Part shown: piece by piece, positions 1-9,602 of the stretch
How the letters are laid out: the number at the start of each line of letters is the position of its first letter
Numbering within the stretch: position 1 is the first letter of the stretch
NCBI RefSeq assembly: GCF_048403405.1
Contig: NZ_CP183129.1
From: Escherichia coli
GTDB lineage: Bacteria; Pseudomonadota; Gammaproteobacteria; Enterobacterales; Enterobacteriaceae
Reading direction: 5' to 3' (one strand)
DNA length: 64,000 nucleotides
Translations under genes and position numbers: made by a program
The notes under the pieces: generated by a model
What the model was told of the DNA's origin: nothing
Databases searched by the model: none
Seen by the model: the letters and a program-made list of their open reading frames with translations, nothing else

Positions 1-2
1 AT

Positions 3-551
3 CCGGTCAGCGATAACGCGGCGCTGACTGGGTTAAGTAAGCTTTTCCGGCACATTCAACCCGCCGTGAACGATCCTCAGGATCTGCGCGCAAAACTGGA
101 AATGCTGTGGGCGTCTTACTATGGCGGCGTAGCGATAACCCATGCGGGCACGCATCTCGTTCATGCGCTCTCCTACCCGTTAGGTGGCAAATATCATCTG
201 CCGCATGGCGTCGCGAATGCCATCTTGCTGGCGCCGTGCATGGCGTTTGTTCGCCCCTGGGCGGTCGAGAAATTTGCCCGGGTCTGGGATTGCATTCCCG
301 ATGCGGAAACCGCCCTGAGCGCGGAAGAAAAATCTCATGCCCTGGTGGCCTGGCTACAGGCATTAGTCAATCAACTCAAGCTACCCAACAATCTCGCGGA
401 TCTCGGCGTACCGCCAGAGGATATTGCCTCTCTTAGCGAGGCGGCACTGAACGTGAAGCGCCTTATGAACAATGCGCCGTGCCAGCTTGATCTACAGGAC
501 GTACAGGCCATTTACCAAACACTGTTTCCGCAACATCAATTTAAGGAATAA
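3..551 (+). CDS. Iron-containing (group III) alcohol dehydrogenase family protein, C-terminal ~182 aa; 5' end lies beyond the left window edge
   Basis: Frame is open from nt 3 with no stop before the track's GTG at 66. Contains HALSYPLGGKYHLPHGVANAILL, the His-rich metal-binding segment typical of Fe-ADHs (FucO/YiaY/EutG-like). Stop lies 3 nt before the next ATG. Confidence 0.8.
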   Translation, partial: PVSDNAALTGLSKLFRHIQPAVNDPQDLRAKLEMLWASYYGGVAITHAGTHLVHALSYPLGGKYHLPHGVANAILLAPCMAFVRPWAVEKFARVWDCIPDAETALSAEEKSHALVAWLQALVNQLKLPNNLADLGVPPEDIASLSEAALNVKRLMNNAPCQLDLQDVQAIYQTLFPQHQFKE

Positions 552-554
552 ATC

Positions 555-1442
555 ATGCCGAAAACCATTGAAGGTGTATTAACCGCCATCGTCACCCCGT
601 TTACCGCGACCGGCAGTCTGAATATCCCGGCGTTAAAAGTGCAGGTGAATCGTCAACTGGAAGCGGGTAACGCGATTTTTTGCGGCGGCACCAACGGCGA
701 GTTTTTTGTGTTGAATGAACAGGAGAAGCTCAGCGTTACGCAAACCTGCGTGGATGAAGTGGCTGGTCGTGCGCCGGTCGTGGCACACATTGGCGAGATC
801 TCGACGCGCGAAACGATTCGTCTGGGTCAGCAGATTGAAAAACTTGGCGTAGATGCTGTGTCGGTCATTACCCCTTACTTCGTACCGCTGAAACAGGAAG
901 AGTTGATTGCGCATTACAGCGCAATTGCCGACGCGCTGAGCATTCCGATGTTTCTCTATAACATCCCGGCCCGCACTGGCAATACGATCCAGCCGGAAAC
1001 CGCGCGTGCTCTGGCGTCGCATCCCAATATCATTGGGATTAAAGACAGCGCCGGAAGCGACGAAAGCCTGAAGGGTTTTCTCGATGCTGTGCGCAACATT
1101 GACGGCTTTAATGTACTCAACGGCCCGGATTCGCTGATCCATAAAGGGTTTGTCGAGGGGTGTTCAGCCTGTATCTCTGGGCTCGCCAACGTCGCACCGC
1201 GGGAAATCAATGCTATCTGGTCTCGCGTCCATGCCGGTGATATTGAAGGGTCTTATGAAGCACAGGAGAGTGTAACGGGCCTGCGTACCGACCTTTATAA
1301 AGTAGCGTTCTCCCCGGCTGCGGTGAAAAAAGCGTTGCAGCTTATGGGGCATGATGTTGGTGATAGCCGCTACGCGGTTAATTTCACGCCTGAACAGATC
1401 AGCGAGATTCAACAAATTATTCGTCATTATAACATTAATTAA
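555..1442 (+). CDS. DapA/NanA-family class I (Schiff-base) pyruvate aldolase/lyase
   Basis: 295 aa. Motifs GGTNGEF, VITPYF, YNIPARTGN and IGIKDSAG (putative Schiff-base Lys) align with the DHDPS/N-acetylneuraminate lyase family. AAGGA RBS precedes the start, which follows the ADH stop closely. Confidence 0.85.
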   Translation: MPKTIEGVLTAIVTPFTATGSLNIPALKVQVNRQLEAGNAIFCGGTNGEFFVLNEQEKLSVTQTCVDEVAGRAPVVAHIGEISTRETIRLGQQIEKLGVDAVSVITPYFVPLKQEELIAHYSAIADALSIPMFLYNIPARTGNTIQPETARALASHPNIIGIKDSAGSDESLKGFLDAVRNIDGFNVLNGPDSLIHKGFVEGCSACISGLANVAPREINAIWSRVHAGDIEGSYEAQESVTGLRTDLYKVAFSPAAVKKALQLMGHDVGDSRYAVNFTPEQISEIQQIIRHYNIN

Positions 1443-1501
1443 ATTAACTCTATTATCCAGCCCGCGATAAAGTTTAGATAAAGAGAATAAAGGATTACTC
1501 C

Positions 1502-2260
1502 ATGTTTTTGTGGTTTATGCAGCCAGATATCTGGCTCACTTTAATTACCCTCACCTTTCTGGAAATTATTCTTGGGGTGGATAATATTATTTTTCTTTCA
1601 CTGGTGGTGGCAAAACTTCCGTTATCACAACAAAATATGGCGCGTAAACTGGGTTTAAGCTGCGCGATGATTATGCGGATATTATTGCTGATATCCATTG
1701 CGTGGCTTTCACATATTACCCAGCCGCTTTTTACCGTGCTGACGCTGGAGATTTCGTTCCGCACGTTGATTCTGCTCGGGGGCGGGCTGTTCCTGATTTA
1801 TAAAGCGATACAGGAGATACGCGAAGAGCTGTCGCCCGCGCAGGAAGACGAACATGGCAGCGGATCGCGGCAACTGTCGTTGTGCGGTGCCATCGTACAG
1901 ATAATGCTGCTCGATATCGTGTTTAGCCTGGATTCGGTGATCACCGCCGTCGGCCTTTCTCAGCATATATTTATCATGATTGCCGCCGTAATGATTGCCG
2001 TCGGTGTCATGATGTTTGCGGCGAAAACAATTGGTGATTTCGTTAACGCCACGCCGTCAATAAAAATACTGGCGTTAACCTTTTTATTATTTGTCGGTGT
2101 ATTGCTGGTTGCCGATAGTCTCAACATTCATATTGCCAAAGAGTATCTCTACTTCGCGATATTTTTCTCATTAAGTGTTGAGACACTCAATATTATCCGT
2201 GAAAGAAGAAATAAAAAAGTTTCGACATTGATCGAAACGCATGAATCGCACTCGCATTAA
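1502..2260 (+). CDS. TerC-family integral membrane protein (YgdQ-like)
   Basis: 252 aa and multi-TM. LEIILGVDNIIFLSLVVAKLP and IVQIMLLDIVFSLDSVITAVG are the duplicated TerC-family signature and closely resemble E. coli YgdQ as I recall it. AAGGA RBS. Confidence 0.8.
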   Translation: MFLWFMQPDIWLTLITLTFLEIILGVDNIIFLSLVVAKLPLSQQNMARKLGLSCAMIMRILLLISIAWLSHITQPLFTVLTLEISFRTLILLGGGLFLIYKAIQEIREELSPAQEDEHGSGSRQLSLCGAIVQIMLLDIVFSLDSVITAVGLSQHIFIMIAAVMIAVGVMMFAAKTIGDFVNATPSIKILALTFLLFVGVLLVADSLNIHIAKEYLYFAIFFSLSVETLNIIRERRNKKVSTLIETHESHSH

Positions 2261-2295
2261 TAAATCTATTACCGACTTTAAGATGGAGTCTAACT

Positions 2296-3465
2296 ATGTC
2301 TGTAGCCCTTATTCGTGACGGCGTCATCCGTCCATCCGAAAACGATTCGCATGTGCTTACCGCCATGCTGCCCTCGTCCTGCCCACAAAACCACGCGGCG
2401 AATATTCTGCCTTTGCCGGATGGCGCGTTAATGTGCGTCTGGTTTGCGGGAACGCAGGAAGGTATTGCCGATATTTCTGTCTGGGGATCGCGATTGCCCG
2501 CTGGCGGGATGCAGTGGAGCGATGCGGTCAAACTTTCCCACGATGACACGCGTTCAGAGCAAAACCCAGTGCTGTTTCTCGCGCCGGATAACGTGCTGTG
2601 GCTGCTATGGACCGCACAAATATCCGGGAATCAGGACACCGCCATCGTCCGCTACCGTAAGTCAGACGACCTCGGACAAACCTGGGGCGAGATTGCCACG
2701 CTGCTCGATAAACCCGGCACGTTCATTCGCCAGCCGATCACGGTGCTTGATAACGGCAACTGGCTGCTGCCCGTCTTTTATTGCCGTACCCAACCCGGTG
2801 AAAAATGGGTCGGCAATGATGATATCAGCGCAGTGAAAATTTCCGCTGACGGTGGTCACTCCTGGCGCGATGTCGTGGTGCCGCAAAGTCTCGGCTGCGT
2901 TCATATGAATATCACAATGCTGCACGACAGTACGTTGGTTGCTCTCTTTCGAAGCCGTTGGGCAGACAACATCTATATCAGCCATTCAGTGGACAACGGC
3001 GAGAGTTGGTCGGTGCCGCAAGCTACCGAATTGCCCAACAACAATTCGTCTATTCAGGTAACGACGCTTGCCAGCGGCGAACTGGCGCTGGTGTACAACG
3101 CGATGAGTGCGGCAGGCGCAGTAGAACGTCGCGCGTCGCTTTATGACGAAATCGACGATGGCGACGACAGCCGCAAAGAACCGACAGCCGTCGGACGCTC
3201 CGCTTTCTGGGGGGCCCCACGCGCGCCGATGACGGTAGCGATTTCTGCCGATGGTGGGAAAAGCTGGCCGTGGCGGCGCAATCTCGATGAAGGCGACGGC
3301 TACTGCATGACCAACAATTCCCTGGAAAAGCTAAATCGTGAGTTCTCCTACCCCAGCATCAAACAAAGCCCGGACGGTACGCTACATATCGCTTACACCT
3401 GGTGGCGTCAGGCCATCAAGTACGTGCGCATCTCCCCCGAGTGGGTTAAGGGGCAGGCATCATGA
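2296..3465 (+). CDS. BNR/Asp-box repeat sialidase-fold protein (exo-alpha-sialidase family), no signal peptide
   Basis: 389 aa. Four Asp-boxes (S-x-D-x-G-x-[ST]-W): SDDLGQTW nt 2662-2685, SADGGHSW 2842-2865, SVDNGESW 2986-3009, SADGGKSW 3244-3267. N-terminal V-I-R-P resembles the sialidase RIP motif. The N-terminus is hydrophilic, with no leader or lipobox. Confidence 0.8.
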   Translation: MSVALIRDGVIRPSENDSHVLTAMLPSSCPQNHAANILPLPDGALMCVWFAGTQEGIADISVWGSRLPAGGMQWSDAVKLSHDDTRSEQNPVLFLAPDNVLWLLWTAQISGNQDTAIVRYRKSDDLGQTWGEIATLLDKPGTFIRQPITVLDNGNWLLPVFYCRTQPGEKWVGNDDISAVKISADGGHSWRDVVVPQSLGCVHMNITMLHDSTLVALFRSRWADNIYISHSVDNGESWSVPQATELPNNNSSIQVTTLASGELALVYNAMSAAGAVERRASLYDEIDDGDDSRKEPTAVGRSAFWGAPRAPMTVAISADGGKSWPWRRNLDEGDGYCMTNNSLEKLNREFSYPSIKQSPDGTLHIAYTWWRQAIKYVRISPEWVKGQAS

Positions 3466-3932
3466 TTATCGGTAATCTCAACCATTTGTCGCTGGCGGGG
3501 CTTCCCGCCTGGGTGAGAAATATTCTGCTGTGCCCGGAGTGTTCGTTATCGGCGTTATCCGCCAGAGAGGACGGTCGCTGGCAACCTGAAGGATGTCGGT
3601 GGTTCTGCACGCTGGGAACTTCAGACACGCAACCCGCCGAACTCCGCCATACGGAGTATCACCATCTGTGGGCCGATATCCAGGTGGTGATTACTGGTTG
3701 TGAGGGCATTAATGCGGGAACGCGGCCCATCGCTCGCGAAAACGATGAAGAACGTAAGCCCGATCTGTTTATCGCCCCATCCCCTGAAAACAGTGTCGCC
3801 ATCACTCTACACCCCGGTGATTTCGCCGTCTTTATGCCTGAGGAACCTCACCAGGCGCTGTGCGCGATTGGCGCGGCTACGTCAGTACGCAAAGCGGTCT
3901 TTAAGGTACCGCGCGACATGCTGGAAGCCTAA
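3462..3932 (+). CDS. YhcH/YjgK/YiaL (DUF386) family protein
   Basis: 156 aa. GDFAVFMPEEPHQA and HTEYHHLWADIQVVI parallel GMFAVFMPGEPHKP and ELHEQYIDIQLLL of E. coli YhcH (recalled). Its ATG overlaps the upstream stop (ATGA), implying translational coupling. Confidence 0.8.
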   Translation: MIIGNLNHLSLAGLPAWVRNILLCPECSLSALSAREDGRWQPEGCRWFCTLGTSDTQPAELRHTEYHHLWADIQVVITGCEGINAGTRPIARENDEERKPDLFIAPSPENSVAITLHPGDFAVFMPEEPHQALCAIGAATSVRKAVFKVPRDMLEA

Positions 3933-3945
3933 AAGGAGAGAAAAA

Positions 3946-5226
3946 ATGACAATGGAAATGATCCTGGCATTAGGAATACTGGTCCTGATGATCGTGCTGA
4001 TCATGTCGGACAAAATGCCATTTGGCGCACCGCCACTGCTTGCGTGTTTATTGCTGGTTGTCTCGGGACTTTCGACCGTTCAACAGGCTTTTGCCGGATT
4101 CGTCAATCCAAGCGTGGTGATGATTGCAGGGTTTATGGTGGTCATGGCAGCGCTACAAAAAACCCGGCTTATCAGCAACGTTAAATCTGCGATGATAAGC
4201 CTGGTCAATAAAGGCAGTTACCGCAGCTACGGGCTGTTGTTAGTCATTGTTATGCTGGGTGCCAGTCTTGCAGGCACCGGCGCGACCGGTTATTACGTGC
4301 TGATTCTGTCGCTGGTATCCACCATTCCGTACAGTAAAAAGCTACCAACATCGAAATTAATGATGCCCCTGGGATTTGCCACCAACCACCCGCTTCTTCC
4401 TATCAATCTCGCGCTTCTCTTTGGCGTTACGGCGACCGTACTCGAAACCGCGGGTTTTCATCAGGAGATTTCGATGGGGCGCTTTGCGCTGGTGAATCTC
4501 ATCATGTCAGCGGCGTTCCTCGCATGGAGTCTTATTGCCTACCGTTTTCTTCCGGATCATCCCATTGCGGATGCTTCCGAGGATGCGCTGGCGGCACGCG
4601 AGGAAACGTTTAACGCCCTTCCTGCCTGGAAAGAATATTGCACTATTGCCGCATTCGCTGTCAGCGTTATCGGCATGATGCTAATGAACATTCTGGGAAA
4701 TATCGCCTTCGTTATTCCGGGTCTTGCGGGTGCGTTTGTTCTGATGATCGATGTACTGGACTTTAAAGAAGTTCGCGATCATATGGGAGCGCCGGTCATT
4801 TTAATGATGGCGGGGGTGATCGGTGTAGCTGATGCACTGGCGGGCACCGGCTTTACGGCGATGGTTGGCGATGCCGTTGCAGGTGTGCTCGGTTCTGGCG
4901 TCTCACCGTTTGTATTTATTGTCGCCTTTGCTTTGCTTACCAGTACCTGCGCCACCTTCACGGGTTCGAATATGGGGTCTGTTTATATTTTTGCCCCCAT
5001 CGCCATTGCCGCCTGTACCAGCCTTGGGCTTAACCCGACCGCTGCAGCGATTGCGGTGGTGATTTCAGGCTGGAACGGCGGCTATATGCCTATTGACGGA
5101 ATGCCAGCCATGATCCTCGGAATGGGGAAATACAAACTTCCCGAATTCTGGGTGTTCTCTGTACCAATGTATCTCATCCGCATTCTGGCGCTTTGTGCAG
5201 GCGCTGTTTTTATCTTCCCAATGTAA
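3946..5226 (+). CDS. Ion-transporter superfamily anion permease (ArsB/NhaD / citrate-transporter-like), 426 aa
   Basis: Highly hydrophobic multi-TM protein. I chose the start at ATG 3946, behind a strong AAAGGAGAG RBS. The track's 3700 start overlaps the YhcH-like gene out of frame and encodes a basic, non-membrane leader. Confidence 0.75.
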   Translation: MTMEMILALGILVLMIVLIMSDKMPFGAPPLLACLLLVVSGLSTVQQAFAGFVNPSVVMIAGFMVVMAALQKTRLISNVKSAMISLVNKGSYRSYGLLLVIVMLGASLAGTGATGYYVLILSLVSTIPYSKKLPTSKLMMPLGFATNHPLLPINLALLFGVTATVLETAGFHQEISMGRFALVNLIMSAAFLAWSLIAYRFLPDHPIADASEDALAAREETFNALPAWKEYCTIAAFAVSVIGMMLMNILGNIAFVIPGLAGAFVLMIDVLDFKEVRDHMGAPVILMMAGVIGVADALAGTGFTAMVGDAVAGVLGSGVSPFVFIVAFALLTSTCATFTGSNMGSVYIFAPIAIAACTSLGLNPTAAAIAVVISGWNGGYMPIDGMPAMILGMGKYKLPEFWVFSVPMYLIRILALCAGAVFIFPM

Positions 5227-5240
5227 TCTCAGACAAAAAA

Positions 5241-5269
5241 AGCGGCAGAGAAGATCCCTGCCGCTTTTT
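5241..5269. terminator. Bidirectional rho-independent terminator between the accessory operon and nagE
   Basis: Hairpin AGCGGCAG-N9-CTGCCGCT, flanked by an A-run upstream and a T-run downstream. Confidence 0.75.
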
Positions 5270-5275
5270 ATTGTT

Positions 5276-5303
5276 GGATGCGACGCTGCCGTGTCGCATC
5301 AGG
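5276..5303. repeat. REP-like palindromic unit
   Basis: GGATGCGACGCTGCCGTGTCGCATCAGG. It has the inverted repeat GATGCGAC/GTCGCATC and resembles E. coli REP consensus variants. Confidence 0.6.
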
Positions 5304-5314
5304 TATAAAGCAGA

Positions 5315-7261
5315 TTACTTTTTGATTTCATACAGCGGCGTTTGACCCGCCACGACATGGCCCTGAGCTTTAATGATCAAGCCGCTGAAATCGTCGATAT
5401 TGCTGCAAACCACCGGGCTAATCATCGAGCGGGCGTTAGCGTTCAGGTAATCCAGATCCATTTCCAGAATCGGTTGTCCTGCGCTTACCTGCGCGCCCTC
5501 TTCCACCAGACGTTTAAAACCTTTACCTTCCAGCGCTACGGTGTCGATACCCATATGGACGACGATCTCCGCGCCTTTTTCGGTTTCCAGGCAGAACGCG
5601 TGGTTGGTATTGAAGATTTTCACGATTGTCCCTGCGGCTGGTGATACGACGATTTTATCTGTCGGTTTCACCGCCACACCGTCACCCACCGCTTTGCTGG
5701 CGAATGCTTCGTCAGGAACCTGATCCAGTGCCACAACATCACCGGTAATCGGCGATACCAGCTCCGCGACAGACACCGCGTTTGGTATAGCCTGCGGTTT
5801 TGCTACAGGCGCGGCAGTTGCAGGCGCAGTTTCAGCTGACGTAGCGGCTACCGGACCACGGGCAACAACTTTCTTCATTGCATCGCCAATGGATTCCGCT
5901 TTCGCGCCAACAATCACCTGAATAGTCTGTTTGTTCAGTTTCACTACCCCAGAAGCACCCAGCCGTTTACACATCGCATCGTTGACGCGAGCCGAGTCAA
6001 CCACGGTCAGGCGCAGACGAGTAATACAGGCGTCAATTGCTTTCAGGTTGTCAGTGCCGCCAACCGCAGCAATATAGTTGGTCGCCAGTTGATTGAGGCC
6101 TTCTTCAGTGTTGCTGTTGGCTTCTTCAGTAACGATCTCATCTTCTTTATCTTCACGACCCGGCGTTTTCAGGTTGAACATGCGGATAACCAAACTGAAC
6201 ACCACGAAGTAGATAGCGAAGAAGACAACACCCATCACCAGCAGCATCCAGACGTTCTGGCTGGCGGCCGGCAGGTTATACATCAACGCGTAGTCGATAG
6301 CCCCCGCAGAGAAGGAGAAGCCCGCGTGGATACCCAGCAGCGTTGCCACAAACAGGCTGATACCGGTCAGCAGTGCGTGCAGGAGGTACAGCAGCGGCGC
6401 AAGGAACATGAACAGGAATTCCAGCGGCTCAGTCACACCGGTCAGGAACGCAGTAACAGCAACAGAAAGCAGCATACCGCCAACCATCGGACGACGCTCT
6501 TTCGGTGCTGCAAAGTACATCGCCAGCGCCGCACCCGGCAGACCGAACATCATGATCGGGAAGAAGCCGGACATGAACATCCCCGCGGTGCCGTCACCGG
6601 CATAGAAGCGGTTGATGTCACCGTGGAAAACCGTACCCGCCGCGTTGGTGAATTCACCAATCTGGAACCAGGCGATGGTGTTCAGTACCTGATGCAGACC
6701 GGTTGGGATCAGCAGACGGTTGATGAAACCAAAGATACCGGAACCCAGCGCGCCCGCAGAAACGATCCACTCGCCGCCTGCATGGATAGCGTGCTGTACC
6801 GGCGGCCAGACGTAACCAAAAATGGCCGCCAGCACCAGGCAGAAGAAGCCGGTGGCAATCGGCACAAAGCGTTTGCCGCCGAAGAAACTCAGGAAGTCCG
6901 GCAGTTTAATATCGGACCAACGGTTATAAGCTGCGCCACCAACCAGACCGGTAATGATACCCGCCAGTACACCCATGTTAATTTCCGGGTTGATGGTCAC
7001 CATCGCTTTGGTTAACACAAAGTAACCTACCGCACCCGCCAGCGCCGCCGCACCTGCGCTGTCTTTCGACCAGCTGGATGCCACACCGATGGCGAAGATT
7101 AATGCGAGGTTATCAAAAATCGCACCGCCCGCCTGGGCAATAAACGCAACGTTAAGTAAATCTGGCTGACCGAATCGCAGCAACAGCGCCGCCACCGGCA
7201 GCACCGCGATAGGGAGCTGTAACGCCCTACCGAGTCGCTGGAAAAAACCTAAAATATTCAT
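5315..7261 (-). CDS. nagE: PTS N-acetylglucosamine-specific EIICBA component
   Basis: 648 aa. Full-length recognisable NagE sequence (MNILGFFQRLGRALQLPIAVLP...), divergent from nagB. Confidence 0.97.
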   Translation of the reverse strand: MNILGFFQRLGRALQLPIAVLPVAALLLRFGQPDLLNVAFIAQAGGAIFDNLALIFAIGVASSWSKDSAGAAALAGAVGYFVLTKAMVTINPEINMGVLAGIITGLVGGAAYNRWSDIKLPDFLSFFGGKRFVPIATGFFCLVLAAIFGYVWPPVQHAIHAGGEWIVSAGALGSGIFGFINRLLIPTGLHQVLNTIAWFQIGEFTNAAGTVFHGDINRFYAGDGTAGMFMSGFFPIMMFGLPGAALAMYFAAPKERRPMVGGMLLSVAVTAFLTGVTEPLEFLFMFLAPLLYLLHALLTGISLFVATLLGIHAGFSFSAGAIDYALMYNLPAASQNVWMLLVMGVVFFAIYFVVFSLVIRMFNLKTPGREDKEDEIVTEEANSNTEEGLNQLATNYIAAVGGTDNLKAIDACITRLRLTVVDSARVNDAMCKRLGASGVVKLNKQTIQVIVGAKAESIGDAMKKVVARGPVAATSAETAPATAAPVAKPQAIPNAVSVAELVSPITGDVVALDQVPDEAFASKAVGDGVAVKPTDKIVVSPAAGTIVKIFNTNHAFCLETEKGAEIVVHMGIDTVALEGKGFKRLVEEGAQVSAGQPILEMDLDYLNANARSMISPVVCSNIDDFSGLIIKAQGHVVAGQTPLYEIKK

Positions 7262-7384
7262 CTTATTCCCCCTACGAGAACCCTATTTGGCTCGTTTAAA
7301 GCCGTATTTTTATTTTGCTGCAAATTGTACTGCCGATGTTCTGTAATCAGATTGTTAGATCATCTGCTACAGAGTGTGTGAAAA

Positions 7385-7407
7385 TTTAATTCGTATCGCA
7401 AATTAAA
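7385..7407. promoter_or_regulatory. NagC operator (nagB-proximal box) in the nagE-nagB divergent control region
   Basis: Perfect inverted repeat TTTAATT-N9-AATTAAA. This matches my recollection of the NagC box in this intergenic region. Confidence 0.6.
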
Positions 7408-7418
7408 CGCGTGTCTTT

Positions 7419-7434
7419 TGTGAGTTTTGTCACC
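7419..7434. promoter_or_regulatory. CRP (cAMP receptor protein) binding site
   Basis: TGTGAGTTTTGTCACC compared with consensus TGTGA-N6-TCACA. It lies between the two NagC boxes, as is known for nagE-B. Confidence 0.65.
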
Positions 7435-7478
7435 AAATATCGTTATCATCACTCCCTTTTACTGGCTAAACCAGAAAA

Positions 7479-7500
7479 CTTATTTTATCATTCAAAAAAT
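7479..7500. promoter_or_regulatory. Probable second NagC operator
   Basis: CTTATTTTATCATTCAAAAAAT is an imperfect AT-rich dyad about 95 bp from the first box, consistent with NagC loop formation. Confidence 0.45.
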
Positions 7501-7593
7501 CAGGTCGGATTGACGCCTGTCTGCGCAAATCCAGGTTACGCTTAAAGATGCCTAATCCGCCAACGGCTTACATTTTACTTATTGAGGTGAATA

Positions 7594-9602
<2,009 letters not shown>

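What the first reader, a model, noticed from the sequence alone, without database searches (positions are those of the whole stretch)
3946..5226. The cluster's transporter is an IT-superfamily permease, not a known sialic-acid transporter class
Known bacterial sialic-acid importers are of the MFS (NanT), TRAP (SiaPQM), ABC (SatABCD) or SSS (SiaT) types. The only dedicated transporter here is a 426-aa ArsB/NhaD/citrate-transporter-like anion permease, expressed last in the operon behind a strong RBS. If the operon does handle an acidic sugar, this would be a different transporter family for that role. Alternatively, it indicates a carboxylate substrate unrelated to sialic acids.
Basis: inference. 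Interest (0 to 1): 0.5.

Follow-up and report, generated by a model that had tools for sequence, protein, structure and literature searches.

The report
Acid-sugar permease of an uncharacterised E. coli island
The gene is a real, divergent dicarboxylate-transporter-like permease that always travels with a sialidase-like enzyme, an aldolase and a D-threonate-degrading pair, so it probably imports a plant-pectin acid sugar (best guess: Dha), not sialic acid; no experiment has tested this yet.

Summary
Window 3946-5226 (+) encodes a 426-aa permease behind AAGGAG, last gene of an operon that ends in a strong terminator. It matches Pfam CitMHS and Na_sulph_symp, and its (low-confidence) model resembles DASS/SLC13 elevator transporters.

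The window is E. coli. The operon is half of an accessory island between glnS and nagE, present in 1046-1537 of 5426 complete genomes and listed as uncharacterised in 2026. The other half, outside the window, encodes D-threonate kinase, PdxA2 and a DeoR regulator.

In 55 species-level loci from Enterobacterales, Firmicutes and Actinomycetota, the permease sits with the sialidase-fold protein and PdxA2 in 55/55, and with all five core enzymes in 52/55. Its ~28% paralogues never do. The same pathway elsewhere uses an SSS or an Opp-type ABC importer instead.

This is not a Neu5Ac operon. By my own stereochemical working, a C7 dicarboxylic ulosonic acid, Dha from pectin RG-II, would yield pyruvate plus D-threonate and use every core enzyme. 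That substrate is inferred, not shown.

However, the TRAP SiaQM membrane subunit shares this fold.

The parts
3946..5226 (+). 426-aa DASS/SLC13-like (Pfam CitMHS + Na_sulph_symp) secondary permease. This is the finding, and the predicted uptake step of the pathway.
   Evidence: Conserved candidate hairpin-tip motifs are GFATNHP (residues 143-149, invariant) and TGS[N/T]MGS (339-345).
3933..3938 (+). Shine-Dalgarno AAGGAG, 7 nt before the ATG
   Evidence: sequence read directly
3462..3932 (+). YhcH/YjgK/YiaL (DUF386) protein. It is NanQ-like but not a NanQ orthologue. Its start overlaps the BNR stop by 4 nt.
   Evidence: NF040884 91.5 bits against a cutoff of 160. Present in 38/55 loci.
2296..3465 (+). 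Cytoplasmic GH33-like sialidase-fold (BNR_2) protein with four Asp-boxes. Predicted ketosidase for a ulosonic or ulosaric acid glycoside.
1502..2260 (+). TerC-family integral membrane protein of unknown role. It accompanies the permease only in Enterobacterales.
   Evidence: PF03741, 157 bits; 16/55 loci; no riboswitch found
555..1442 (+). DHDPS/NAL-family class I aldolase. It is not a DapA or NanA orthologue. Predicted to cleave the 3-deoxy-2-ulosaric acid into pyruvate and a C4 aldehydo-acid.
   Evidence: TIGR00683 nanA 114 bits against 382; dapA 191 against 206
1..551 (+). 3' part of an iron-containing alcohol dehydrogenase gene that starts upstream of the window. Predicted reductase for the C4 aldehydo-acid, giving D-threonate.
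   Evidence: full gene at L001:11394-12551
5234..5272 (.). Bidirectional intrinsic terminator (A-run, GCGGCAG...CTGCCGC, T-run) that ends both the operon and the convergent nagE
   Evidence: z -6.4 against shuffles

Best explanation
The ORF encodes a divergent DASS/SLC13-like, elevator-type secondary permease. It is the uptake step of a horizontally mobile catabolic module. The module's other members are a cytoplasmic GH33-like ketosidase, an optional NanQ-like DUF386 protein, an NAL/DHDPS-family lyase, an Fe-ADH, a DUF1537 D-threonate kinase and PdxA2.

Proposed route (inferred):
1. The permease imports an acidic ulosonic-type sugar. [quoted passage not shown]
2. The sialidase-fold enzyme frees the monosaccharide.
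3. The lyase cleaves C3-C4 to give pyruvate and D-threuronate.
4. Fe-ADH reduces D-threuronate to D-threonate.
5. DtnK phosphorylates D-threonate.
6. PdxA2 oxidatively decarboxylates the product to DHAP and CO2.

What is shown: the gene, its family and fold, and its near-obligate linkage to these enzymes across phyla. What is inferred: import as the direction of transport, the order of steps and the identity of the substrate. I put about 0.75 on 'importer of this pathway's acid-sugar substrate' and about 0.35-0.4 on Dha specifically.
For: Linkage to the pathway:
- In 55 orthologue loci (56-98% identity) from Enterobacterales, Bacilli, Clostridia and Actinomycetota, BNR and PdxA2 are present in 55/55, the aldolase in 53, Fe-ADH in 52 and the kinase in 52. 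All five are present in 52/55. In Firmicutes they form one sigma54-regulated operon whose only transporter is this permease.
- The 27-29% paralogues carry none of these genes (0/10). They sit with LysR and a fumarase/tartrate-dehydratase-type enzyme, which is a dicarboxylate context.
- The same enzyme set elsewhere uses an SSS transporter (K. aerogenes, Kosakonia, Yersinia, Pantoea, Ralstonia) or an SBP_bac_5 ABC importer (S. meliloti pSymB). The SSS is never found together with this permease (0/55). This is non-orthologous displacement of an uptake step.

Chemistry:
- DtnK scores 533 bits (cutoff 450) and PdxA2 scores 680 bits (cutoff 583), so both pass their equivalog cutoffs. Ralstonia fuses the two into one protein.
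- DUF1537 kinases act on C4 acid sugars (PMC10971088).
- By my Fischer-projection working, which rests on my own knowledge, aldol cleavage of D-lyxo Dha followed by aldehyde reduction gives exactly D-threonate.

Fold:
- The permease model's best structural matches are NaCT, NaS1, NaDC3, VcINDY and LaINDY (E ~1e-7, TM 0.55-0.65).

Ecology:
- Plasmid-borne BNR homologues are mostly in Rhizobium, Sinorhizobium, Pantoea, Ralstonia and Agrobacterium.
- Permease orthologues occur in Pectobacterium, Brenneria, the plant-fibre degrader Anaeromicropila herbilytica and gut Enterococcus.
Against: - There is no experimental datum for any gene in the island. It is listed as uncharacterised in PMC12928451.
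- The permease model has low confidence (pLDDT 62), and the region holding the first hairpin motif is below 50.
- The island kinase is only about 40% identical to the characterised DtnK (PMC12928451), and the Firmicute kinases fall below the DtnK cutoff (163.8 against 450). The C4 acid could therefore be another tetronate.
- If free Dha were the substrate, no glycosidase would be needed. Yet the BNR protein is universal, so the transported species may be a glycoside of unknown structure and perhaps too large for this fold.
- No pectin-degrading genes flank the island in Pectobacterium or Brenneria.
- The SSS and SBP_bac_5 alternatives are not typical dicarboxylate carriers.
- The roles of the TerC protein and the optional SDR are unexplained.
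Confidence: 0.55

Rival explanations
1. The permease imports some other acidic ulosonic-type sugar or glycoside, not Dha. Examples are a different 3-deoxy-heptulosaric or heptulosonic isomer, a bacterial or algal glycan component, or a plant metabolite. Breakdown would still pass through a C4 acid sugar handled by the DUF1537 kinase and PdxA2.
For: All the linkage evidence applies equally. The Firmicute kinases are below the DtnK cutoff and the E. coli kinase is about 40% identical to the characterised DtnK, so the tetronate could differ. The universal BNR protein implies a glycoside. The S. meliloti version uses an Opp-type SBP_bac_5 importer and adds two Amidohydro_2 genes.
Against: I know of no other natural substrate that uses every core enzyme as economically. 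The plant-associated distribution and the dicarboxylate-type sister subfamily fit Dha.
Confidence: 0.22
2. One reading: the permease is a new-class importer for sialic acid (Neu5Ac or an anhydro or modified form) in a nan-like operon.
For: The BNR protein has a GH33 sialidase fold. The operon has an NAL-family aldolase and a NanQ-like DUF386 protein. It lies next to nagE and nagBACD in E. coli.
Against: The aldolase scores 114 bits against the 382 nanA cutoff, and YhcH scores 91.5 against the 160 NanQ cutoff. There is no nanK, nanE or nanT. The D-threonate kinase and PdxA2 are obligatory partners and have no role in ManNAc metabolism. The nag genes are core genome and are not linked to the island in other species. 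The island is abundant in rhizobia, Ralstonia and soil Bacillaceae.
Confidence: 0.06
3. One reading: the permease is an ordinary di- or tricarboxylate (tartrate, malate or citrate) transporter or antiporter, functionally unrelated to the sugar-acid enzymes.
For: Pfam CitMHS and DASS models match. JGI names homologues 'di/tricarboxylate transporter'. The nearest paralogues sit beside fumarase/tartrate-dehydratase-type genes.
Against: The permease co-occurs with the pathway in 55/55 loci across phyla and is the only transporter in the Firmicute operons. It is mutually exclusive with the SSS alternative (0/55). It is at most 31% identical to any full-length relative outside its clade, and TIGR00785 is far below cutoff.
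Confidence: 0.07
4. The permease imports free D-threonate or another tetronate, feeding DtnK and PdxA2 directly. The upstream substrate of the BNR protein and the aldolase would then enter by another route. Alternatively, it is a precursor/product antiporter or an exporter.
For: DtnK and PdxA2 are the best-annotated steps. Some DASS members are antiporters (LaINDY and AtDiT are among the fold matches).
Against: The Firmicute and SSS-variant operons each contain only one transporter. If that transporter carried D-threonate, the BNR protein, aldolase and ADH would have no supply. Tetronates are monocarboxylates, usually carried by GntP or TRAP systems (my own knowledge).
Confidence: 0.08

Closest known systems
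DASS / SLC13 family (TC 2.A.47): VcINDY, LaINDY, NaCT, NaDC3, NaS1, plant DiT
   Same: Pfam PF00939 is matched above its gathering score. These are the best structural matches (Foldseek E ~1e-7, TM 0.55-0.65). Size (~430 aa) and helix count are similar to VcINDY. Two conserved polar loop motifs (GFATNHP and TGS[N/T]MGS) are spaced about 196 residues apart, like the two SNT hairpin tips. The sister subfamily has a dicarboxylate context.
   Different: TIGR00785 scores 56.7 bits against a cutoff of 198.6. No PDB sequence is matched even with a profile at E<=10. The motifs are not canonical SNT. The whole family has only 1813 representatives at E<=1e-3 among 1.84 billion. The predicted substrate is a C7 sugar diacid or its glycoside, not a C4-C6 di/tricarboxylate or sulfate.
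Sialic-acid TRAP transporter SiaPQM (membrane subunit SiaQM, DctM family)
   Same: It has the same elevator-type IT-superfamily fold. SiaQM chains are recovered as remote matches (7qha E 4e-4, 8thi E 3e-3), and the permease's paralogues hit Pfam DctM. It likewise carries a carboxylated ulosonic sugar for a lyase-based pathway.
   Different: No DctP or DctQ partner is encoded here, and the permease itself does not reach DctM in Pfam. TM-scores are only about 0.42. The substrate is not Neu5Ac.
[quoted passage not shown] 2021, PMC8461474)
   Same: The evolutionary pattern is the same: one acid-sugar pathway served by several unrelated transporter types. Here these are DASS-like, SSS and SBP_bac_5 ABC. 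For sialic acid they are MFS, SSS, ABC (including SBP_bac_5) and TRAP.
   Different: The permease belongs to none of the ST Pfam families. The alternative SSS here is not close to SiaT, since its best solved relatives are choline and glucose SSS proteins at E ~1e-9. The pathway is not nan.
D-glucarate/galactarate pathway (GudP/GarP permease, GarL aldolase, GarR reductase, GarK kinase) - analogy from my own knowledge
   Same: The logic is the same, one carbon shorter: import of a sugar diacid, aldol cleavage to pyruvate plus an aldehydo-acid (tartronate semialdehyde), reduction to a hydroxy-acid (glycerate), then phosphorylation.
   Different: The protein families differ (MFS permease, class II aldolase, beta-hydroxyacid dehydrogenase, glycerate kinase). 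The fragment is C3, not C4. There is no glycosidase and no PdxA2-type decarboxylating step.
D-threonate catabolism by DtnK + PdxA2 (Zhang et al. 2016, as summarised in PMC10971088 and PMC9997740)
   Same: The island's kinase and dehydrogenase pass the NCBIfam equivalog cutoffs for exactly these enzymes.
   Different: In this island they are embedded in a larger module that would generate D-threonate internally from a bigger sugar acid, and the transporter is of a different type.

Membership tests
IT superfamily (Pfam clan of CitMHS, Na_sulph_symp, DctM, ArsB and others) | Significant match to at least one member-family HMM over most of the protein's length | tested here: met
   PF03600 scores 87 bits over residues 16-342, and PF00939 scores 48.4 bits over residues 6-416. 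Both are above their gathering scores.
DASS / SLC13 (TC 2.A.47) | Score at or above the TIGR00785 'dass' subfamily cutoff | tested here: not met
   56.7 bits against a cutoff of 198.6
DASS / SLC13 (TC 2.A.47) | DASS-type elevator fold (scaffold and transport domains with two re-entrant hairpins) | tested here: inconclusive
   The top 28 Foldseek PDB matches are all DASS proteins (E 2e-7 to 4e-5, TM 0.5-0.65). However, the model has pLDDT 62 and residues 90-153 are below 50. The hhalign test for internal repeats is not significant (E 0.076).
DASS / SLC13 (TC 2.A.47) | Two Ser-Asn-Thr (SNT) motifs at the hairpin tips that bind Na+ and carboxylate | tested here: inconclusive
   The candidate motifs are A-T-N (145-147, invariant) and S-N/T-M (341-343). 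No residue-level alignment to a solved DASS protein could be obtained.
DASS / SLC13 (TC 2.A.47) | Transport of di/tricarboxylates or sulfate, Na+-coupled or by exchange | not testable with these tools
   Needs uptake assays
CitMHS (TC 2.A.11, metal-citrate symporters) | Orthology to CitM/CitH and a citrate-utilisation context | tested here: not met
   Only the broad Pfam PF03600 model matches. No NCBIfam citrate-transporter model was hit. No citrate genes occur in any of the 55 loci, and the context is always the BNR/aldolase/threonate module.
ArsB / NhaD | Match to an ArsB or NhaD model, or an ars or Na+/H+ context | tested here: not met
   No ArsB or NhaD family was reported at E<=0.01 in Pfam or NCBIfam. 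There are no ars genes nearby.
Known sialic-acid transporters ST1-ST8 (NanT/NanX/NanZ/NanG MFS, SiaT SSS, SatABCD/SatEFG/SatXYZ ABC, SiaPQM TRAP) | Membership of the MFS_1, MFS_2, SSF, SBP_bac_1/5 ABC or DctPQM Pfam families | tested here: not met
   None of these families is matched. The classification is taken from PMC8461474.
Known sialic-acid transporters ST1-ST8 | Genetic linkage to a nan cluster (nanA with nanK/nanE, or nanOx/nanY) | tested here: not met
   The aldolase and YhcH are below the NanA and NanQ equivalog cutoffs. No nanK, nanE or nanY homologue occurs in the island in any lineage examined.
TRAP transporter M subunit (DctM) | DctM HMM match plus adjacent DctQ and DctP genes | tested here: not met
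   The permease has no DctM match. No DctP or DctQ is found in the operon. There is only remote fold similarity to SiaQM.
GH33 sialidase (for the neighbouring BNR protein, which frames the substrate class) | Six-bladed beta-propeller with Asp-boxes, superposable on GH33 enzymes | tested here: met
GH33 sialidase (neighbouring BNR protein) | Catalytic Arg triad, Tyr/Glu nucleophile pair, Asp acid/base and the FRIP motif, in the right geometry | tested here: inconclusive
   Invariant R145, R219, R221, R309, R371, E88, Y352 and D59 are available. No FRIP motif is evident.

The most novel reading that the evidence does not exclude
The island is the so far undescribed catabolic pathway for Dha, the rare C7 ulosaric acid of pectin RG-II, or for its ketosides. 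The permease would then be the first stand-alone DASS-type transporter for a sialic-acid-like (ulosonic) sugar. This would also identify a natural source of D-threonate for the DtnK/PdxA2 pathway. It would give B2/ExPEC E. coli, the K. oxytoca group, enterococci and plant-associated bacteria a private nutrient released by primary pectin degraders such as Bacteroides.
Probability: 0.35. Interest if true: 0.75.

Novelty: new variant of a known kind. Interest (0 to 1): 0.6.

Why it matters
- Transport: if correct, the substrate range of DASS-like elevator transporters extends from small di/tricarboxylates to sugar diacids.
- Evolution: it adds a further example of unrelated transporter families being recruited to one acid-sugar pathway, as happened for sialic acid.
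- Pectin metabolism: it would assign a function to a roughly 9-gene island carried by about a fifth to a quarter of complete E. coli genomes (ExPEC, AIEC and EPEC lineages), which a 2026 genome paper still lists as uncharacterised. The fate of RG-II's unusual acid sugars in the gut is largely unknown. A 2026 preprint states that pathways for released Kdo in other gut microbes are unconfirmed, and I found no paper on Dha catabolism.
- Testability: every step of the prediction can be tested with standard coupled enzyme assays and growth experiments.

Tried and rejected
- Sequence search of the permease, alone and as a profile, against PDB sequences found nothing even at E<=10. No residue-level mapping onto VcINDY was therefore possible.
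- The first AF2 model of the permease, from an 11-sequence MSA at 76-100% identity, was poor (pLDDT 62). The remaining structure job went to the BNR protein, so no deeper permease model was made.
- The internal-repeat test of the N- and C-halves by hhalign was not significant (E 0.076).
- The pattern scan for terminators and promoters found no more than shuffled sequence does. The real terminator was found by reading and folding the intergenic gap.
- Rfam found no RNA family in 1-8000, so there is no Mn riboswitch ahead of TerC.
- I looked for pectin-degradation genes beside the island in Pectobacterium and Brenneria. None were present, only unrelated genes and an extra SDR.
- I tested whether the alternative SSS transporter is SiaT-like. 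It is not.
- Literature searches for Dha or Kdo catabolism, for D-threonate kinase with sialidase, and for S. meliloti SMb2014x genes found no functional study of this module.
- The two founding DUF1537 papers and Ndeh et al. 2017 are not held in the library, so I cite them only through secondary sources.
- I rejected the idea that the adjacent nagE and nagBACD genes link the island to amino-sugar or sialic-acid metabolism. The island is an insertion between the core genes glnS and nagE, and it sits elsewhere in other genera.
Full report

Yes. Window 3946-5226 (+) is an ATG-initiated ORF of 426 codons. AAGGAG lies 7 nt upstream, and the ORF starts 14 nt after the stop of the preceding yhcH-like gene. 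It is the last gene of a co-directional, tightly packed series:
- the 3' end of an Fe-ADH gene (window ..551),
- a DHDPS-family aldolase (555-1442),
- a TerC-family protein (1502-2260),
- a BNR/sialidase-family protein (2296-3465, overlapping the next start by 4 nt),
- a YhcH/DUF386 protein (3462-3932),
- the permease.

A strong bidirectional intrinsic terminator (about 5234-5272; -44 kcal/mol, z = -6.4) separates it from the convergent nagE.

The protein matches Pfam CitMHS (87 bits) and Na_sulph_symp (48 bits), both above their gathering scores. RefSeq names it 'SLC13 family permease'.

TIGR00785 (DASS) scores only 56.7 against a cutoff of 198.6.

**2. Where does it come from, and what surrounds it?**

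The window is E. coli, 100% identical to several human isolates and 98.9% to EPEC E2348/69. The 5.3-kb stretch is found in 1537 of 5426 complete genomes, and in 1046 of them at 80% coverage or more. It is always chromosomal.

The annotated E2348/69 locus shows an accessory island inserted between the core genes glnS and nagE. Its other half lies just outside the window on the opposite strand: a DeoR regulator, 'D-threonate 4-phosphate dehydrogenase' (PdxA2) and 'D-threonate kinase' (DtnK). Both enzymes pass their NCBIfam equivalog cutoffs (680 against 583, and 533 against 450).

A 2026 comparative-genomics paper lists the island as 'GR 6 nagE..glnS'. It reports the island as shared by APEC, UPEC, NMEC and AIEC strains and places it among 'uncharacterized features' (PMC12928451).

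**3. Is the permease really part of this pathway?**

A scan of one genome per species returned 67 orthologues at 56-98% identity. They come from Enterobacterales (K. oxytoca group, Kluyvera, Pseudocitrobacter, Pectobacterium, Brenneria), Bacillaceae, Paenibacillus, Enterococcus, Streptococcus, Trichococcus, Lachnospiraceae, Oscillospiraceae and Actinomycetota.

Among the 55 loci with at least 18 kb held:

| Neighbour | Loci with it |
|---|---|
| BNR protein | 55/55 |
| PdxA2 | 55/55 |
| Aldolase | 53/55 |
| Fe-ADH | 52/55 |
| DUF1537 kinase | 52/55 |
| All five | 52/55 |

In Firmicutes the genes form a single sigma54/PrpR-regulated operon in which this permease is the only transporter.

The ten paralogue loci at 27-29% identity contain none of these genes. 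Instead they carry a LysR regulator and a two-subunit class-I fumarase/tartrate-dehydratase-type enzyme.

An unbiased HMMER search of 1.84 billion representatives found only 1813 relatives at E<=1e-3 and 52 at E<=1e-30. Full-length relatives fall from 56% to 46%, 40% and 31% identity, then level off near 25%. The permease therefore belongs to a small, sharply bounded orthologous group whose function is tied to this module.

**4. The pathway swaps its transporter.**

Close BNR homologues (76-82% identity) occur in K. aerogenes, Kosakonia, Y. enterocolitica and Pantoea, and a 59% homologue occurs in Ralstonia. They lie in the same island, but with an SSS-family (PF00474) transporter and without the SLC13-like permease. 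Conversely, no permease locus contains the SSS (0/55).

S. meliloti pSymB has the aldolase, BNR protein, Fe-ADH and DUF1537 kinase together with an Opp/Dpp-type ABC importer (SBP_bac_5). In Ralstonia the kinase and PdxA are fused into one 766-aa protein.

Three unrelated uptake systems for one enzyme set is classic non-orthologous displacement. It argues that the permease is the importer of the pathway's first substrate. The pattern mirrors sialic-acid transport, which arose at least eight times from MFS, SSS, ABC and TRAP stock (PMC8461474).

**5. What kind of transporter is it?**

No solved structure is detectable by sequence, even with a profile at E<=10.

An AlphaFold model from a shallow alignment is of low confidence (pLDDT 62). 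Even so, its best PDB matches are uniformly DASS/SLC13 elevator transporters: NaCT, NaS1, NaDC3, VcINDY, LaINDY and AtDiT (E about 1e-7, TM 0.55-0.65). Pho90 follows, then the sialic-acid TRAP membrane subunit SiaQM (E 4e-4), then the AbgT proteins.

Two conserved polar motifs lie about 196 residues apart: GFATNHP (invariant) and TGS[N/T]MGS. That spacing is where the two hairpin-tip SNT motifs of DASS proteins would be expected, but I could not align them residue by residue. An internal-repeat test was not significant.

I therefore call the protein DASS-like and do not file it as a DASS member.

**6. What does the pathway degrade?**

It is not Neu5Ac, for four reasons:
- The aldolase is roughly equidistant from DapA, YagE and NanA, and scores 114 against the 382 nanA cutoff.
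- The DUF386 protein scores 91.5 against the 160 NanQ cutoff.
- No nanK, nanE or nanT is present in the island.
- The neighbouring nag genes are core genome. In K. aerogenes the island sits by marRAB.

The obligatory kinase and PdxA2 pair acts on C4 acid sugars (PMC10971088, PMC9997740).

The following step is my own inference from textbook stereochemistry. A class I aldolase cleaving a 3-deoxy-2-ulosonic acid between C3 and C4 gives pyruvate plus the C4-to-Cn aldehyde. To obtain a C4 acid that needs only an alcohol-dehydrogenase-type reduction, the substrate must be a C7 acid with a second carboxylate at C7, that is, a 3-deoxy-2-heptulosaric acid.

For the natural D-lyxo isomer, Dha, the fragment is D-threuronate, and its reduction gives D-threonate. 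That is exactly the substrate of DtnK and PdxA2, which convert it to DHAP and CO2. Every core enzyme is then used once, and a dicarboxylate-type permease is a natural carrier.

The BNR family is concentrated in plant-associated bacteria: Rhizobium 128, Sinorhizobium 78, Pantoea 27, Ralstonia 21 and Agrobacterium 17 plasmid records. The permease occurs in pectinolytic Pectobacterium and Brenneria, and in gut and soil Firmicutes.

I found no paper describing Dha catabolism. A 2026 preprint states that pathways for released Kdo and other RG-II products in other gut microbes are unconfirmed.

**7. Weak points.**

- Nothing here is experimental.
- The E. coli kinase is only about 40% identical to the characterised DtnK, and the Firmicute kinases are below the DtnK cutoff. 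The tetronate may therefore differ.
- The BNR protein is closer to GH33 sialidases than to BT_1020.
- Because the BNR protein is universal, the imported species is probably a ketoside, not free Dha. Its structure and size are unknown.
- No pectin genes flank the island in Pectobacterium or Brenneria.
- The TerC protein (Enterobacterales only, 16/55 loci), the optional SDR and the two Amidohydro_2 genes in S. meliloti are unexplained.
- The direction and coupling of transport (symport or exchange) are unknown.

**8. Verdict.**

The gene is the dedicated transporter of an uncharacterised, widely transferred acid-sugar catabolic module. It is a divergent DASS-like permease, a type not previously linked to ulosonic sugars.

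I estimate about 0.75 that it imports this pathway's acidic sugar substrate, and about 0.35-0.4 that the substrate is Dha or a Dha ketoside. I give 0.06 to Neu5Ac and 0.07 to a plain di/tricarboxylate.

I rate the novelty as a new variant of a known kind, and the interest as 0.6. The hypothesis is specific, cheap to test and touches an open question, the fate of RG-II's rare acid sugars. The transporter fold itself is familiar, and all functional claims are inferred.

Noticed in passing
window 5234-5303: A bidirectional intrinsic terminator (AAAAAAAGCGGCAG...CTGCCGCTTTTTATT) lies between the convergent permease and nagE genes. A REP-like hairpin follows it (GGATGCGACGCTGCCGTGTCGCATC, 5276-5303).
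   Followed up: partly
window 1502-2260: A TerC-family membrane protein gene is embedded in the sugar-acid operon, but only in Enterobacterales (16/55 loci). It occupies the slot where the SSS transporter sits in the K. aerogenes-type island. No yybP-ykoY (Mn) riboswitch or other Rfam family lies upstream. Its role is unexplained.
   Followed up: partly
L089:5115-7415 (Ralstonia solanacearum megaplasmid): A 766-aa natural fusion of a DUF1537 kinase (SBD_N + NBD_C) with PdxA. This Rosetta-stone link ties the two steps together. It is annotated only as 'hypothetical protein'.
   Followed up: yes
window 3700-5226: Some records (APEC O1, P0001) annotate a 508-aa form starting at GTG 3700, which overlaps yhcH by 233 nt. 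The 426-aa ATG start with an RBS is far more common (over 1400 member sequences) and is probably correct.
   Followed up: partly
window 2296-3465, residues 277-307: The sialidase-fold protein carries a low-confidence acidic insertion (…LYDEIDDGDDSRKEP…). It is present in proteobacterial orthologues and absent from Firmicute ones.
   Followed up: no
L075-L084 (gut Firmicutes, Paracoccus, Comamonas): The permease's nearest paralogues (27-29% identity) are consistently flanked by a divergent LysR regulator and two-subunit class-I fumarase/tartrate-dehydratase-like genes. This suggests an uncharacterised hydroxy-dicarboxylate uptake system.
   Followed up: partly
L088 (S. meliloti pSymB 150-171 kb): The rhizobial version of the module uses an SBP_bac_5 ABC importer and a GntR regulator, and adds two Amidohydro_2 (lactonase/decarboxylase-type) genes. 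The PLSDB record has no annotation for this stretch.
   Followed up: partly
L046:12816-13505 (Pectobacterium); L085:11634-12311 (K. aerogenes): An SDR oxidoreductase is an optional last gene of the island. It occurs with either transporter type and is absent from E. coli.
   Followed up: partly
protein P0075 (metaclust, 444 aa): This database entry combines PF03600 (permease, 100% identical over 86% of the query) with PF03741 (TerC). It is probably an assembly or gene-calling chimera, not a real fusion.
   Followed up: no
L048, L069 (Terribacillus) and L065 (Arachnia propionica): These are the only three orthologue loci that lack part of the core. They keep the permease, BNR and PdxA2, but the kinase and ADH (and in Terribacillus the aldolase) were not detected within 10 kb. 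The genes may lie elsewhere or be replaced.
   Followed up: no
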